Assembly: GCA_038858525.1 (NCBI GenBank) | Contig: JAWCFL010000021.1 | Coordinates: forward strand, 731 to 32,730 | Direction: 5' to 3' | Source: Candidatus Jordarchaeales archaeon | GTDB lineage: Archaea > Asgardarchaeota > Jordiarchaeia > Jordiarchaeales > Freyrarchaeaceae | DNA: 32,000 bases | Shown here: positions 4,391-30,456 of the stretch, one piece after another | How the letters are laid out: every line of letters starts with the position of its first letter | Numbering within the stretch: the stretch's first letter is position 1 | Made by a program: the position numbers and the translations under genes | The notes under the pieces: generated by a model | What the model saw: only the letters and a program-made list of their open reading frames with translations | What the model was told of the DNA's origin: nothing | Databases searched by the model: none

Positions 4391-4521
4391 AAAACGCAAG
4401 ATAAAGATCTTACTTTCTTTTCTCGCATATATGTTCCCTTTTAAAAGCCTCCTCTTATATGTGATTTACAATTTTTGTAAAAAATACCGTAAAATATATT
4501 GAAATATTATTCATTTTCTTT

Positions 4522-4542
4522 AAAGCGAAAGATTTTTATTAA
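4522..4542 (+). promoter_or_regulatory. BRE/TATA promoter upstream of the candidate structured RNA
   Basis: AAAGCGAAAGA followed by TTTTTATTAA, ending about 21 nt before the GC-rich 5' end at 4563-4564. Confidence 0.55.
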
Positions 4543-4562
4543 GAAATTCTCCTATGAAAGAT

Positions 4563-4687
4563 GGGGTGGGCGGATGATGGCGCGAAAACCCCAGAACTAT
4601 TTCTGTTTCGTGTGGTTTTATCCCCCCTCCCCCTCACTGCAGAAATAGACAAAATGGGGTTGTGAAACCGCCCGCCCACCCGAAACA
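4563..4687 (+). ncRNA. Candidate structured non-coding RNA of unknown family
   Basis: Nested stems 4564-4573/4672-4681 (10 bp), 4587-4593/4655-4661 (7 bp) and 4597-4605/4640-4648 (9 bp). GC island in an AT-rich spacer, with an upstream TATA and a downstream pyrimidine/T tract. Confidence 0.6.
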
Positions 4688-4735
4688 TTTTACAAGAACT
4701 TCTCCTCTTTTCTTCTTATAGAAGACCCTATCGGG

Positions 4736-5897
4736 ATGAGGTTCATGTGGCGTGCTATAAGGCCAGACTCCATCAGTGTTTGGAGCAATGAGCAGGTTCT
4801 AACTCGACTTAAGCGCTACTACGCTGTCCTTAAAGATGAAAAACCGGCTAAAATGCTTGTGGCCAGAAAAGTGGAAATTGAAGACGACCTCAACGTTCCA
4901 ACAGACAAACTCTGGCATCAACACCAAAGGGCTAGTGGAAAGTTCCGTAGCCTTCTCAAAGAAGTAGACCAAGGTAAAATTAATCTAAAAGATTTAGACA
5001 CTCCGAAAACCTCGTACTTAGACCTAAAATTGGAGCTTGCTAGGCGAATACTGGCAAGCTGCCACTTCTGTGAAAGAAGGTGCGGCGTGAACAGACTGGA
5101 AGGCAAACATGGCGCCTGTCAGCTTAACGCAAAGGCGTACGTCTCTTCAGCATTCCTTCACTTTGGAGAAGAAGCTCCACTAGTGCCATCAGGCACAAAC
5201 GCCCGAGTTTCTCTCTGGCGGTGCAATCTTCTTCAACATGTGCACGTTTAAGTGTGTCTTTTGTCAGAACCACGATATCTCTACGGCAATAGATGGCGTT
5301 GAGGTAAACGGAGAGAAACTAGCTAGTTTAGCTCGCCACCTTAAGAGAGAAGGCGCACGAAACATAAATTACGTCGGTGGAGACCCAACTCCTTCCGCTC
5401 ATGTAATCCTTGAAGCCATAAGAAATCTCGCGTATACGGAGACAAACATTACTCAGCTTTGGAACTCTAACTTTTACTGTAGCAAAGAGTTAATTATTCT
5501 TCTGCTTGACGTCATGGATTTCTGGCTTCCCGATTTTAAGTATGGAAACGACGAATGCGCTGAGCGTCTCTCCAAGGTTAAGCGTTACTTCGAAGTAGTA
5601 TCAAGAAATCATAAGCTGGCATATGATGAGACAGTTGTAGAAGGCACTTCAGGCATGATCATACGCCACTTGGTTCTGCCAGGACATTTAGATTGTTGCA
5701 CGAAGCCGATTTTGGAATGGATCGCTGAAAACACTCCGTTGGCTCTCGTGAATGTAATGTCGCAGTATCACCCTGACTACCTAGTGCCTCAAAACCCTGA
5801 TTACAGAGAAATAAATCGCAGAGTAACAGTTAAAGAAATGAAGGAAGCATACGAGTACGCAGACAAACTAGGTTTAGTATGGAGACCAGTCAGTTAA
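4736..5897 (+). CDS. PflX-like radical SAM protein, intron-split: join(4736..5198,5227..5897), 377 aa
   Basis: The two ORFs are halves of one protein. The spliced reading HFGEEAPLVPSGTIFFNMCTFKCVFCQNHDIS restores CxxxCxxC. N-terminal CHFCERRCGVNR; C-terminal RHLVLPGH and NVMSQYHP. Confidence 0.88.
5199..5226 (+). other. 28-nt BHB intron in the radical SAM mRNA
   Basis: Central helix GCAC(5193-96)/GTGC(5221-24), bulges AAA(5197-99) and AAT(5225-27), intron stem CGCC/GGCG. Canonical cuts restore the frame. Confidence 0.88.
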
Positions 5898-6076: not shown

Positions 6077-7105
6077 TCACCATTTTGTCTCCCTACATTC
6101 CCCGACAATTGCAATTTTTTCGTTGCAACGTGGGCATCTGCCATCCTTAAGGTTACATTTCTTTACTATGAAGCCGTATCTTTCGATCACTTTTTCGTTA
6201 CACTTCGGACAGTAAGTGTCCTCTCCTTCCCCAGGCATGTTTCCCATATACACGTAGTGTAACCCTTCCTCCCTCGCTAACTTCCACGCTTTGGCTATCG
6301 TTGAAGGAGGTGTGGGCGGAAGATTACTCAACTTATAGTGGGGGAAAAACCTTGAGAAGTGAACTGGCATATCTAATCCCGCGTTTTCCTTAACCCATCT
6401 GGCGAACTCTCTTATTTCTTCTTCGCTATCGTTCAGCGTTGGTATTATCAGGTAAGTCAACTCTACATGTATCCCTTCCTCTTGCATAATAAGAATATTA
6501 TCCAGCACTGGCTTTACGCTTGGCGCCTTGCAAATCTTTCTATAAAATTCATCTTTCATTGATTTGACATCTACGTTTGCCGCGTCTATGTAAGGCGCAA
6601 TTTCTCTGAGCGGTTCCTCCATTACGTAGCCGTTTGTTACAAGTACGTTCTTTATTCCCTCCTGATGAGCAAGTTTTGCCACATCGTAAACGAATTCATA
6701 CCATATGAATGGCTCATTATACGTGTACGCTATAAATTTACTGCCGCTTCCCTTAATACGCCTAACTATTTCTTCTGGTGAGAAATCCCTTGTAAAACCA
6801 CTTTCTATCGATGCTTGCGAAATCTCCCAGTTCTGACAGTTCTGGCAGTGGAGGTTGCAGCCGACAGTTGAAATGGAGAATATAGGCGAACCAGGATAAA
6901 AGTGGAATAAAGGCTTTTTCTCTATAGGGTCTACAGCCATTGATGAAACTGACCCATAAACCAAAGTGAAAAGCGTTCCTCCTCTGTTTTCTCGGACACC
7001 ACAGCCCCCTCGTCTTCCTTCTTTAATAATGCATTTCTGAGGGCAAAGAAAACAAACAACCGTCCCATCGTCCTTAACCTCATAGAACAAGGCGTTCTTA
7101 ATCAT
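6077..7105 (-). CDS. AmmeMemoRadiSam-system radical SAM enzyme
   Basis: N-terminal C..CP..C, DPIEKKPLFHFYPG, GCNLHCQNCQNWEISQ, YTYNEP, HFSRFFPHY, C-terminal Cys pairs. Confidence 0.9.
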   Translation of the reverse strand: MIKNALFYEVKDDGTVVCFLCPQKCIIKEGRRGGCGVRENRGGTLFTLVYGSVSSMAVDPIEKKPLFHFYPGSPIFSISTVGCNLHCQNCQNWEISQASIESGFTRDFSPEEIVRRIKGSGSKFIAYTYNEPFIWYEFVYDVAKLAHQEGIKNVLVTNGYVMEEPLREIAPYIDAANVDVKSMKDEFYRKICKAPSVKPVLDNILIMQEEGIHVELTYLIIPTLNDSEEEIREFARWVKENAGLDMPVHFSRFFPHYKLSNLPPTPPSTIAKAWKLAREEGLHYVYMGNMPGEGEDTYCPKCNEKVIERYGFIVKKCNLKDGRCPRCNEKIAIVGECRETKW

Positions 7106-12411: not shown

Positions 12412-13630
12412 TTACCCCTCTCGTTCCATTATCTCGCTGAACTCTAACACTTTAAGCTCAGGTGGTTTTTTAACTATGTTTTCTTGGCGTACCCCTACAA
12501 TCCATTTTACTCCCTTCTCCTGCGAGATATCAATGAGTCTTTGTGTCACTATACCATCTAAAATTACGGCTCCAACTTTCTCATTGAAGCTTCGAAGGAA
12601 ATCTGCGAGCTCTGATACGTCGACTTCAGCCATCATGTTAAGTGCCTCCCCCAGGATCCTCGCCTTACCCGAGCCGAAAACTGCATTTGAATGATCAGTT
12701 ATCTCCTGCGGAACCTTAGTTGCTTTTTTAATTATCTGCACTTTCTTTTCTTCACGCTTCTTCCAGCTCTCGTGTTCAGCGATTTGCTCGACGGGAACCT
12801 TATTGCTCAAGGCCTTCATAATCTCCTTAAATGTAAGCTCTTCAACTTCGCGGCCGGGAGGCGCCCTCGCCACATAGTCTATTTCTGCAATTTGCAGCAA
12901 CTCCTTTAAGATTAAGTCACCACCTCTATCACCATCTAAGAAGGCTGTAACGGTCTTTCTCTTGCTAAGTTCAACGATAGTTCTAGGAACACTTGTTCCC
13001 TCCACCGCTATAACGTTCTTAAAACCATACTTTAGCATGTTCAAGACGTCAGCTCTACCCTCAACTACGATGATCTCATCCGCTGAATCTATTTCTGGCC
13101 CGGCGGGTAACCCCTCCTTTCCATACTTACAGATTTCCTCGACTCTTGCCGCTTCAATGACTTTATTAATTATTTGTTCAGTTTCAGGGGAAACCTCCTC
13201 AGACCATCTTCTGAGAATTTCAATAGCTCGTTCGACGATCCTCTTACGCTTACTTTCTCTTACATCCTCTATGGACTCAAAGGTTACTTTAGCACTGCAT
13301 GGACCAATTCTATCAATGGTTTCAAGTGCCGCCGCAAGAATAGCTGTCTCAACCTTATCAAGACTCGAAGGGATAAATATCTCCCCTACAGCTTTTCCTC
13401 CATGCGTCTCAATCTCTGCCTTTATTCGCCCTATCCTACCCGTACGTTGGAGCTCCCTTAAGTCCATCTCGTCGCCGAGAAGCCCCTCCAATTTGCCTAC
13501 GTGAGCCCTCAGCTCTACGTAATTGGCCGAAAATCGCACCTATAACATCAGGCTTCTCGACGACACCATTTACCTCTATTTTAGCTTTTATAATATATTT
13601 TATCGTGCCAACATCATTTCGGTTAGCCAT
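12412..13630 (-). CDS. dnaG: Archaeal DnaG (exosome-associated toprim protein), intron-split: complement(join(12412..13491,13523..13630)), 395 aa
   Basis: ATG at 13630 follows GGAGGTGA. Exon 1 reads KYIIKAKIEVNGVVEKPDVIGAIFGQ and exon 2 reads LEGLLGDEMDLRELQRTGRIGRI...VVEGRAD...LDGDRGG. Confidence 0.9.
13492..13522 (-). other. 31-nt relaxed BHB intron in dnaG mRNA
   Basis: Minus strand GGCC-AAT-[TACGT A GAGC TGAGG GCTC ACGTA]-GGCA-AAT. Cuts after AA in both bulges give CAA|TTG GAG, in frame. Confidence 0.82.
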
Positions 13631-30012: not shown

Positions 30013-30150
30013 AAAGCAACTATTAATTCTCATATTAAAGCTAAGCTCAACAGTAAGCACTTTATTAAAACTGTTTTCTAATTGTTGTGATTGACGCGGG
30101 GGGCGGGATTTGAACCCGCGCTCCCCGAAAGGGGAACTGGCTCTCAAGGC

Positions 30151-30179
30151 TTCCGCTCGGGACCCTACATGACCCCGAC
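30151..30179 (-). other. 29-nt tRNA intron at position 29/30
   Basis: GCGC-TGG-[8-bp stem]-GCGG-AAG. Canonical cuts rebuild a perfect 5-bp anticodon stem. Confidence 0.85.
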
Positions 30180-30189
30180 CAGCGCCGTT

Positions 30190-30200
30190 TTACGTTTTAT
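30190..30200 (-). other. About 11-nt D-loop tRNA intron (BHL-like)
   Basis: GCGG-ACA-TAAA-ACGT-AAA. Removal leaves GCC-AAGCGGACAAC-GGC. Exact boundaries uncertain. Confidence 0.6.
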
Positions 30201-30456
30201 GTCCGCTTGGCTACCCCCGCTCAACTTCAAACATCCCTATTTCTCTCACTTGTTTAATCTCCTTTTTCTCCTTTAAATTTTTAATCAACTAGATGTATCG
30301 CGTTTTAACGTTTTGAACTTTAACTCTTACCGGTACTTTTACTGGTATCCGGGCAAACATATATTTAAATAATCTATATACTTGTTATTTCTGAACTTTC
30401 TCGGTTAATCCTTTGCTAAGGCGCTTCTATTATGATTATGATGGAGGTGTTAAAGC

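What the first reader, a model, noticed from the sequence alone, without database searches (positions are those of the whole stretch)
5168..5234. Canonical BHB intron inside a radical SAM protein-coding gene
Seen: a 28-nt insert (5199-5226, ACGCCCGAGTTTCTCTCTGGCGGTGCAA) shifts the frame four codons before the CxxxCxxC motif. It folds as a perfect 4-bp central helix GCAC/GTGC, two 3-nt bulges AAA and AAT, and an intron stem CGCC/GGCG. Exon pairing is G5192-C5228 plus A5191-U5229, or GAAGAAG 5168-74 with CTTCTTC 5228-34. Known: archaeal tRNA-splicing endonuclease (EndA) cuts after the 2nd nt of each bulge and RtcB ligates. Those cuts give GGC ACA A|TC TTC TTC AAC ATG TGC (GTIFFNMC) and a 377-aa protein. 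Unspliced mRNA gives a 171-aa fragment without the [4Fe-4S] motif. The established archaeal mRNA intron I can recall is in crenarchaeal cbf5; I know of none in this gene family (not searched). Inference: a genuine mRNA intron.
Basis: partly seen in the sequence, partly recalled or inferred. Interest (0 to 1): 0.92.

Follow-up and report, generated by a model that had tools for sequence, protein, structure and literature searches.

The report
tRNA-type intron in archaeal protein gene
A 28-base intron of the kind archaea normally carry in tRNA genes interrupts a radical SAM enzyme gene of an Asgard archaeon, and comparison with relatives shows it must be cut out of the messenger RNA, as must similar mini-introns in at least nine other genes of the same genome.

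Summary
Window 5199-5226 is a 28-nt insert in a PflX-like radical SAM gene. Removing it restores a 374/377-aa protein with GTIFFNMCTFKCVFC.

The insert has the bulge-helix-bulge (BHB) core: GCAC/GUGC helix, bulges AAA and AAU, and an inner hairpin. The outer helix is weak (2 bp locally, or 7 bp long-range).

Evidence that it is spliced:
- The same site holds 27-, 28-, 31-, 32-, 33- or 34-nt inserts in every copy examined in the order, in a third Asgard family and on metagenome contigs.
- The BHB cuts always give GTIFF.
- Inner stems covary.
- The Gly and Thr wobble bases next to the 5' cut are frozen, but vary freely in 71 intron-less alleles.
- Both exons are under purifying selection (dN/dS 0.01-0.18).
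- The genome encodes a catalytic EndA subunit, a His-less paralogue and RtcB.

A homology screen found the same kind of insert in cbf5 (at the crenarchaeal site), aEF-2, gatE, rpl44e, dnaG, ppsA, pcm, leuD and an EndoQ-like gene.

This scan has already reported the orthologous intron in other Jordarchaeia genomes. The papers I could search document mRNA BHB splicing only for crenarchaeal cbf5.

Verdict: a new member of a known kind.

The parts
4745..5198 (+). Exon 1 of the PflX-like radical SAM gene. The likely start is ATG 4745 (MWRAIRPD..., as in homologues); an upstream in-frame ATG lies at 4736. The exon ends with the first base of the Ile codon.
   Evidence: dN/dS is 0.04-0.18 against relatives.
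5199..5226 (+). 28-nt BHB intron: the last base of bulge 1, the inner hairpin, the 3' strand of the central helix and the first two bases of bulge 2.
   Evidence: Same-site inserts of 27-34 nt occur in relatives.
5193..5196 (+). Central helix, 5' strand GCAC. It is exonic (codons GGC ACA).
   Evidence: 100% of cells paired in 13 alleles, with one C-G to U-G change. The Gly wobble position is restricted to C or U.
5197..5199 (+). 5' bulge AAA. The predicted cut is after 5198.
   Evidence: It is AAA in 12 of 13 alleles and AAU in one.
5200..5220 (+). Inner helix h' and loop: CGCC-C-GAG / CUC-U-GGCG with a 5-nt loop.
   Evidence: RNAfold gives -9.0 kcal/mol. The first three pairs change on both sides between lineages.
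5221..5224 (+). Central helix, 3' strand GUGC. It is intronic.
   Evidence: Invariant in 13 alleles.
5225..5227 (+). 3' bulge AAU. The predicted cut is after 5226.
   Evidence: It is AAU or AUU in all alleles.
5168..5174 (+). GAAGAAG (Glu-Glu codons), the candidate long-range 5' strand of the outer helix.
   Evidence: It pairs with 5228-5234 in all 13 alleles, with G-U variants. It is part of the RNAalifold consensus and of the single-sequence minimum free energy fold.
5228..5234 (+). CUUCUUC (Ile/Phe-Phe codons), the 3' strand of the outer helix. C5228 and U5229 can instead pair locally with G5192 and A5191.
5227..5897 (+). Exon 2, the radical SAM core, through the stop codon.
   Evidence: Pfam PF04055 at E = 4e-13. 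dN/dS is 0.01-0.04.
5241..5264 (+). CxxxCxxC motif (CTFKCVFC) that binds the [4Fe-4S] cluster. Its first Cys is the fifth codon after the split Ile codon.

Best explanation
Window 5199-5226 is a tRNA-type (bulge-helix-bulge) mini-intron in the pre-mRNA of a PflX-like radical SAM enzyme. The host is an Asgard archaeon of the order that contains Jordarchaeaceae.

Proposed mechanism:
1. The transcript folds so that exonic GCAC pairs with intronic GUGC.
2. A 3-nt bulge lies on each strand, next to an intronic hairpin on one side and a weak or long-range exon-exon helix on the other.
3. The host splicing endonuclease cuts after the second base of each bulge. The enzyme is inferred to be a catalytic alpha subunit plus a His-less second subunit, the (alpha-beta)2 type reported for Asgard and TACK archaea.
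4. RtcB joins the exons.
5. The mature mRNA encodes a 374-aa protein with ...SGTIFFNMCTFKCVFC....

Shown here: the motif, its conservation and covariation, selection on both exons and on the exonic half of the helix, the presence of the enzymes, and the same kind of insert in other single-copy housekeeping genes.

Inferred only: cleavage and ligation in vivo, and the fate of the 28-nt intron (probably a circle).
For: 1. Removing the 28 nt restores the frame and the family motif.
2. The same codon is interrupted in all 4 genomes of the genus, in the other genus of the family, in the 5 genomes of the sister family that hold the gene, in 3 genomes of a third Asgard family (f24), and on independent metagenome contigs. 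Lengths are 27, 28, 31, 32, 33 and 34 nt. The 27- and 33-nt inserts are in frame and carry TGA. The BHB cuts give G-T-I-F-F in every case.
3. For the named structure, 96.6% of cells pair, against 29-60% when partners are slid. Three inner pairs change on both sides (CGC/GCG to GAA/UUC). More distal stems differ between lineages yet all fold (-4.7 to -13.8 kcal/mol). RNAalifold finds the same structure unaided.
4. In 13 distinct intron-bearing alleles the Gly codon is GGC or GGU and the Thr codon is always ACA. In 71 distinct intron-less alleles both wobble positions are about uniform.
5. dN/dS is 0.04-0.18 for exon 1 and 0.01-0.04 for exon 2, with dS near or beyond saturation.
6. There are two EndA paralogues. 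One has the Tyr-His-Lys residues and is most similar to the catalytic chains of crenarchaeal heterotetramers (3p1z_B, 2zyz_B). The other lacks the His. RtcB is intact. Asgard (alpha-beta)2 EndA with the specificity loop is described in PMC5829648.
7. A homology screen with the ORFs of a closed Odin-like genome found BHB inserts whose removal gives junction-spanning alignments without gaps, or with one or two small gaps (leuD 1, EndoQ-like 2). The genes are ppsA, aEF-2, pcm, leuD, gatE, cbf5, rpl44e and an EndoQ-like gene. The two dnaG halves in this window hit positions 1-25 and 28-277 of one DnaG profile. No second copy of aEF-2, gatE, cbf5, rpl44e or dnaG was found.
Against: There are no RNA data.

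The outer helix is only 2 bp locally. The alternative 7-bp helix leaves 18 unpaired bases on the 5' strand. In a 101-nt context the minimum free energy fold of this allele is a competitor, 6.4 kcal/mol better than the BHB fold.

One relative (G009) has a C-A mismatch in the third inner pair.

A motif-plus-ORF scan of the genome shows no excess over control motifs, so the motif alone is not diagnostic; homology is needed.

The compensatory changes at the first three inner pairs trace to one split between lineages, so they count as few independent events.
Confidence: 0.9

Rival explanations
1. Translational recoding: ribosomes bypass or frameshift over the insert, as in phage T4 gene 60, and no RNA splicing occurs.
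For: A stable hairpin sits at the start of the gap. The insert is short at 27-34 nt.
Against: The take-off codon ACA and the codon before the resumption point (GCA) do not match. Insert lengths fall in all three residue classes modulo 3, and some are in frame with TGA, so no single frameshift rule fits. What is conserved is exactly the 4-bp helix and the two 3-nt bulges, including frozen exonic wobble bases. The same geometry occurs in cbf5 at the site where crenarchaeal splicing was assigned and reported.
Confidence: 0.03
2. A split or decaying gene: the two halves are made as separate polypeptides, or the gene is a conserved pseudogene.
For: In this genus an ATG (5238) stands just before the first Cys, so a 219-aa C-terminal product is conceivable. 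Gene callers in public data annotate such 219-234-aa products.
Against: In the other lineages no start codon precedes the Cys motif (FFSSC, FFTSC, FFESC). A separate C-terminal product there would lose cluster cysteines. dN/dS well below 1 in both halves, at saturated dS, excludes a pseudogene. The hypothesis does not explain the covarying hairpin or the frozen wobble bases.
Confidence: 0.04
3. An assembly or sequencing artefact, or a strain-specific insertion without function.
For: The genome is a 63-contig metagenome-type assembly.
Against: The insert recurs at the same codon in at least 13 distinct alleles from independent assemblies and metagenomes.
Confidence: 0.005
4. A real RNA-level excision, but by a nuclease or ligase other than EndA and RtcB.
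Against: The geometry is exactly the EndA substrate. Both enzymes are encoded. No other archaeal system is known to me that excises 20-34-nt segments at 3-nt bulges.
Confidence: 0.025

Closest known systems
cbf5 pre-mRNA intron of Crenarchaeota (Desulfurococcales and Sulfolobales; Watanabe 2002; Yoshinari 2006; Yokobori 2009, PMC2738675)
   Same: A short BHB intron inside a protein-coding gene. It lies at a catalytically critical motif and must be removed by the hetero-oligomeric splicing endonuclease to give a functional protein. It is patchily distributed among lineages. This genome also carries a cbf5 intron at the same place, between the first and second base of the catalytic Asp codon.
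   Different: The gene is different (a PflX-like radical SAM enzyme) and so is the phylum (Asgard). The intron is one of at least ten interrupted protein genes in the genome rather than a lone case. Splicing is not yet shown experimentally here.
Archaeal pre-tRNA and pre-rRNA BHB introns (Marck and Grosjean 2003), including the intron-rich tRNA genes of Jordiarchaeia and Atabeyarchaeia (PMC11291895; bioRxiv 10.64898/2026.10.13.758758)
   Same: The 4-bp helix, the two 3-nt bulges and the cut after the second bulge base. The same host lineages are already known for more than two intervening sequences per tRNA gene.
   Different: The host RNA is an mRNA, so the exon half of the motif is also constrained by codons. 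The outer helix is weak, resembling relaxed forms that only broad-specificity EndA types cut (PMC5829648).
Non-spliceosomal HAC1/XBP1 mRNA splicing in eukaryotes (Ire1 with RtcB or Trl1)
   Same: Endonucleolytic removal of a short intron from an mRNA at stem-loop structures, followed by joining with a tRNA ligase. The splice changes the reading frame. This comparison rests on my own knowledge, not on a tool result.
   Different: The nuclease and its recognition motif are different. That splicing is regulated by stress, whereas here it is presumably constitutive.
PflX-like / glycyl-radical-activase-like radical SAM proteins (Pfam PF04055, PF13353)
   Same: The CxxxCxxC motif and the radical SAM core. 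The closest NCBIfam models are PflA, NrdG and the AmmeMemoRadiSam enzyme.
   Different: All NCBIfam hits lie far below their curated cut-offs (27 bits against 232 for PflA). The roughly 150-aa N-terminal domain with a CxxCxxxC...C cluster has no family hit. The substrate is unknown.

Membership tests
Archaeal BHB intron (EndA substrate) | A 4-bp central helix flanked by two 3-nt bulges on opposite strands | tested here: met
   GCAC/GUGC with bulges AAA and AAU. All central-helix cells pair in 13 alleles. RNAalifold recovers it.
Archaeal BHB intron (EndA substrate) | Flanking helices h (exon-exon) and h' (intron) closing the bulges | tested here: inconclusive
   h' is clear at 4-9 bp. h is only 1-2 bp locally, with 88.5% of cells paired. 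Alternatively it is a 7-bp long-range helix that leaves 18 nt unpaired. The motif resembles a relaxed form.
Archaeal BHB intron (EndA substrate) | Cuts after the second base of each bulge give a functional product | tested here: met
   The cuts restore the frame and give GTIFF plus CxxxCxxC in all alleles, for inserts of 27-34 nt.
Archaeal BHB intron (EndA substrate) | The structure is maintained by selection (covariation) | tested here: met
   Wobble bases in the exonic strand are frozen, against 71 intron-less alleles where they vary.
Archaeal BHB intron (EndA substrate) | The host encodes a splicing endonuclease and RtcB ligase | tested here: met
   There are two PF01974 genes. One has the Tyr-His-Lys residues and is closest to crenarchaeal catalytic chains; the other lacks the His. 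RtcB scores 601 bits and has no stop.
Archaeal BHB intron (EndA substrate) | Excision and exon ligation observed in RNA | not testable with these tools
No full-length protein above 75% identity exists in the protein collection, so no spliced transcript assembly is on record.
Programmed translational bypass (T4 gene 60 type) | Matching take-off and landing codons flanking the gap | tested here: not met
   The take-off codon is ACA and the codon before the resumption point is GCA. Insert lengths vary between alleles.
Radical SAM superfamily (PF04055) | A CxxxCxxC cluster motif and a domain hit above the gathering score | tested here: met
   50.3 bits against a cut-off of 29.5; the motif is CTFKCVFC.
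Pyruvate formate-lyase activase PflA (TIGR02493) | A score above the curated equivalog cut-off | tested here: not met
   27-33 bits against 231.75. It is only a distant relative and should be called PflX-like.

The most novel reading that the evidence does not exclude
The radical SAM intron is one visible part of a constitutive, genome-wide mRNA splicing system in several Asgard lineages. These are the order holding Jordarchaeaceae, an Odin-like lineage and a third family. In this reading, tRNA-type mini-introns of 20-34 nt sit in the most conserved motifs of single-copy housekeeping genes (aEF-2, GatE, L44e, DnaG, Cbf5). They recur at identical sites in distant lineages: cbf5 as in Crenarchaeota, and this gene in two separate Asgard groups. 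They are removed by EndA and RtcB before translation. This would mean that close prokaryotic relatives of eukaryotes routinely separate mRNA maturation from translation, and that BHB introns spread in a site-specific way.
Probability: 0.75. Interest if true: 0.88.

Novelty: new member of a known kind. Interest (0 to 1): 0.74.

Why it matters
In the papers I could search, endonuclease-mediated mRNA splicing in archaea is documented for one gene only, cbf5, and only in Crenarchaeota. PMC2738675 states that no other gene had been confirmed.

Here a second, unrelated gene carries such an intron, with strong comparative support. The same genome carries at least nine more, including translation and replication genes found here only in interrupted form.

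Practical consequences:
- Gene callers split or truncate these genes. Public records list 182-234-aa fragments of this enzyme.
- Metabolic and phylogenomic inferences for these Asgard lineages are therefore affected.

Biological consequences:
- The finding gives a testable case of obligatory mRNA processing in relatives of the eukaryotic ancestor.
- It raises the question of how splicing is ordered relative to coupled translation.
- Introns recur at identical codons in conserved motifs, which offers a way to study how BHB introns spread.

Tried and rejected
- Motif-only census: a genome-wide scan for a BHB that also restores an ORF timed out at first. It then gave as many hits as control motifs with parallel pairing or a slid helix: for example 1477 against 1319 and 1459 at 4 or more inner pairs, and 43 against 46 and 41 at 7 or more. 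The background comes from ordinary gene boundaries. I dropped this approach for a homology screen.
- Weak candidates: several screen hits (C13, C15, C17, C33) did not give junction-spanning alignments, so I do not count them.
- RNA family searches: Rfam at gathering score found nothing in the window. At E up to 1 it found nothing in 4480-4760. ARAGORN found no tRNA in the window and only 11 in the genome.
- Single or double origin: the free gene tree separates the two site-A groups. The AU test does not reject holding them together (p = 0.56, and the constrained tree even scored better). The number of gains is therefore undecided.
- TAA stop in one Odin-like copy: the stop reported lies upstream of the start codon and is not a defect.
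- Not attempted: structure or complex prediction of the spliced protein, because a spliced sequence is not admissible to those tools.

Full report
**What is in the sequence**

Window 4736-5251 and 5238-5897 are two ORFs on the plus strand in different frames. The second ORF is a radical SAM core (PF04055, E = 4e-13). Removing 5199-5226 (28 nt) joins them into one ORF that reads ...EEAPLVPSGT-I-FFNMCTFKCVFCQ.... The product is 377 aa from ATG 4736, or 374 aa from ATG 4745, which is where homologues start.

- GCAC 5193-5196 pairs with GUGC 5221-5224.
- The bulges are AAA 5197-5199 and AAU 5225-5227.
- The inner stem is CGCC/GGCG, extended by GAG/CUC.
- The outer pairing is either A5191-U5229 and G5192-C5228, or GAAGAAG 5168-5174 with CUUCUUC 5228-5234.

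A 51-nt local fold gives the BHB core as its minimum free energy structure (-14.9 kcal/mol). In 101 nt, a competing fold that pairs GGCAC with an upstream GUGCC is 6.4 kcal/mol better. That competitor is not conserved in relatives.

**Who carries it**

The genome (G000) has 2.09 Mb in 63 contigs and is 92.7% complete. The nearest named proteins come from Jordarchaeaceae and Jordarchaeum MAGs, and full-length homologues of about 370 aa are widespread in Asgard and TACK archaea.

Among relatives, the open frame is short in all four genomes of the genus, in the other genus of the family, and in five of six genomes of the sister family. The sixth gave no match. Most other Asgard families have an uninterrupted gene of about 370-440 aa. 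A 400-genome census of the phylum found 301 genomes with the gene. Among the matches listed it added one more interrupted family, f24 (157 matches were not listed), and confirmed an Odin-like lineage that is interrupted at another place. A metagenome scan added further alleles.

At the window's site the inserts measure 27, 28, 31, 32, 33 or 34 nt. The 27- and 33-nt inserts are in frame and contain TGA. In every allele, cutting after the second base of each 3-nt bulge yields G-T-I-F-F followed by the Cys motif. Length variation across all three residue classes modulo 3 rules out a frameshift rule. Recurrence in independent assemblies rules out an artefact.

**Selection on the RNA structure**

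I aligned 13 distinct alleles (A1) and counted pairs for the named structure.
- 96.6% of cells pair, against 29-60% when the 3' partners are slid.
- The central helix pairs in all cells. One allele has GGU in place of GGC, which keeps a U-G pair.
- The first three inner pairs are CGC/GCG in the two related families and GAA/UUC in f24.
- The distal stems differ among genera (CCAGAG/CUCUGG, UGGA/UCCA, AAGAG/CUCUU, GAGC/GCUC, UUGA.../...UCAA) yet all fold, at -4.7 to -13.8 kcal/mol.
- RNAalifold, given no structure, returns helix, 3-nt bulge, 4-bp helix, 3-nt bulge and helix, and uses the long-range GARGARG/CUUYUUY pairing as the outer helix.

An independent test uses the exonic half of the motif. 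In 71 distinct intron-less alleles the third positions of the Gly and Thr codons are nearly uniform (GGC 21, GGU 19, GGG 16, GGA 15; ACC 20, ACA 20, ACU 17, ACG 14). In all 13 intron-bearing alleles the codons are GGC or GGU, and ACA. The neighbouring Pro and Ser wobble positions vary freely in the same alleles. The compensatory changes at the first three inner pairs trace to few lineage splits, so they are not many independent events. The frozen wobble bases at saturated dS are the stronger argument.

**Selection on the protein**

Pairwise dN/dS is 0.04-0.18 for exon 1 and 0.01-0.04 for exon 2 wherever dS can be estimated. It is saturated for the deeper pairs. The gene is therefore not a pseudogene.

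A two-polypeptide reading is conceivable only in this genus, where ATG 5238 precedes the first Cys. The other lineages read FFSSC, FFTSC or FFESC with no start codon there.

**Machinery**

Two PF01974 genes are present.
- One is 191 aa, has the Tyr, His and Lys residues, and is most similar to the catalytic chains of the Aeropyrum and Pyrobaculum heterotetramers.
- The other is 198 aa, lacks the His and is more divergent.

This fits the (alpha-beta)2 enzyme with broad specificity that PMC5829648 reports for Asgard and TACK archaea. RtcB is intact.

**Not alone in the genome**

First-stage notes of this scan listed many candidate mRNA introns in this genome. I tested the idea independently. I fetched a closed 1.42-Mb Odin-like genome and used its ORFs as tblastn queries against G000. 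I accepted only cases where removing a BHB-bounded insert gives a junction-spanning alignment that is gap-free or has at most one or two small gaps.

| Gene | Contig and coordinates | Insert (nt) | Junction |
|---|---|---|---|
| ppsA | C1 42657-42676 | 20 | |
| aEF-2 | C4 81118-81146 | 29 | DTPGHV\|DFTGH |
| pcm | C1 145116-145146, minus strand | 31 | |
| leuD | C10 | 29 | |
| gatE | C2 68773-68802 | 30 | |
| cbf5 | C1 177182-177211 | 30 | |
| rpl44e | C1 178227-178256 | 30 | |
| EndoQ-like gene | C5 | 24 | |

Family names come from NCBIfam for gatE, aEF-2 and dnaG.

In this window, dnaG (minus strand) has a 31-nt insert at 13492-13522. Its two halves hit DnaG profile positions 1-25 and 28-277. 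No second copy of aEF-2, gatE, cbf5, rpl44e or dnaG was found with these queries, so the organism appears to depend on removing such inserts.

The cbf5 insert splits the catalytic Asp codon as G|AT. PMC2738675 gives this as the position of the crenarchaeal cbf5 intron.

All ten introns lie in highly conserved motifs, and most of their bulges are A-rich.

**Evolution**

The Odin-like lineage has a 29-nt BHB intron ten codons downstream, inside CxxxCxxC (TAT|TGC). Its helix is GCGU/ACGC and its inner stem has 7 bp. Splicing restores CTFRCAYC in three genomes.

In a maximum-likelihood tree of 91 spliced or intact proteins, the two site-A groups are each monophyletic and are separated by intron-less lineages. 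The AU test does not reject uniting them (p = 0.56). One gain followed by losses, two gains at the same codon, and transfer all remain open.

The reciprocal screen suggests that the Odin-like genome also carries several interrupted genes. I did not verify these individually.

**Alternatives**

- Translational bypass fails the matching-codon test and does not predict a BHB.
- A split gene or pseudogene is contradicted by selection and by the missing start codons.
- An artefact is excluded by recurrence in independent assemblies.
- A different nuclease cannot be excluded without enzymology, but nothing supports one.

**Novelty**

Searches of the held literature found BHB mRNA splicing documented only for crenarchaeal cbf5, plus recent work on the intron-rich tRNA genes of Jordiarchaeia and Atabeyarchaeia that does not mention protein genes. 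The library lacks most subscription journals, so this is not proof of absence.

This scan has already followed up the orthologous 31-nt intron in other Jordarchaeia genomes, with the same conclusion. The present window adds the 28-nt form in a sister family.

**Limits**

There are no RNA data. The outer helix is weak. The motif alone is not diagnostic. Taxon names are inferred from the names of similar proteins because genome handles are anonymous.

Noticed in passing
window 13492-13522 (minus strand): dnaG is split by a 31-nt insert with a relaxed BHB: GGCC/GGCA has 3 of 4 pairs, both bulges are AAU, and the hairpin is strong. Splicing gives ...GAIFGQ-L-EGLLG.... The two halves hit DnaG profile NF003108 at positions 1-25 and 28-277.
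   Followed up: partly
G000 contig C1 177182-177211 (locus L119): cbf5 carries a 30-nt in-frame BHB intron with a TGA stop: helix CACU/GGUG, a 10-bp inner stem and a 4-bp outer stem. It splits the catalytic Asp codon as G|AT, the same position as the crenarchaeal cbf5 intron (PMC2738675).
   Followed up: yes
G000 contigs C1, C2, C4, C5, C10 (coordinates in the full report): Homology-validated BHB inserts of 20-31 nt occur in ppsA, aEF-2, pcm, leuD, gatE, rpl44e and an EndoQ-like gene. All lie in highly conserved motifs. aEF-2, gatE and rpl44e have no second copy in the assembly.
   Followed up: partly
L027, L028, L029 (Odin-like genomes G022, G011, G032): The same radical SAM gene carries a different 29-nt BHB intron inside the CxxxCxxC motif (TAT|TGC), ten codons downstream of the window's site. 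A reciprocal screen suggests several further interrupted genes in the closed genome G011, for example around 738041-738071, 166598-166625, 839597-839624 and 535633-535667.
   Followed up: partly
L033-L035, L065, L072 (Asgard family f24): A third, separate lineage has 28- or 33-nt introns at exactly the window's site, with an unrelated inner stem (GAAUUGA.../...UCAAUUC). The gene tree separates it from the window's order, but an AU test does not reject a single clade.
   Followed up: partly
window 4563-4687 (+): A GC-clamped, strongly structured element lies just upstream of the gene (-55 kcal/mol, z = -4.95). It has no Rfam match even at E up to 1. Its identity is unknown.
   Followed up: partly
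window 30095-30220 and the whole genome: ARAGORN finds no tRNA in the window and only 11 in the 2.09-Mb genome, 8 of them with introns. This fits the heavily interrupted tRNA genes reported for this class.
   Followed up: no
window 6077-7105 (minus strand): A second, uninterrupted radical SAM gene (342 aa, PF04055 at E = 2e-28) lies tail to tail with the interrupted one. tblastn shows this neighbour in several relatives' loci as well.
   Followed up: no
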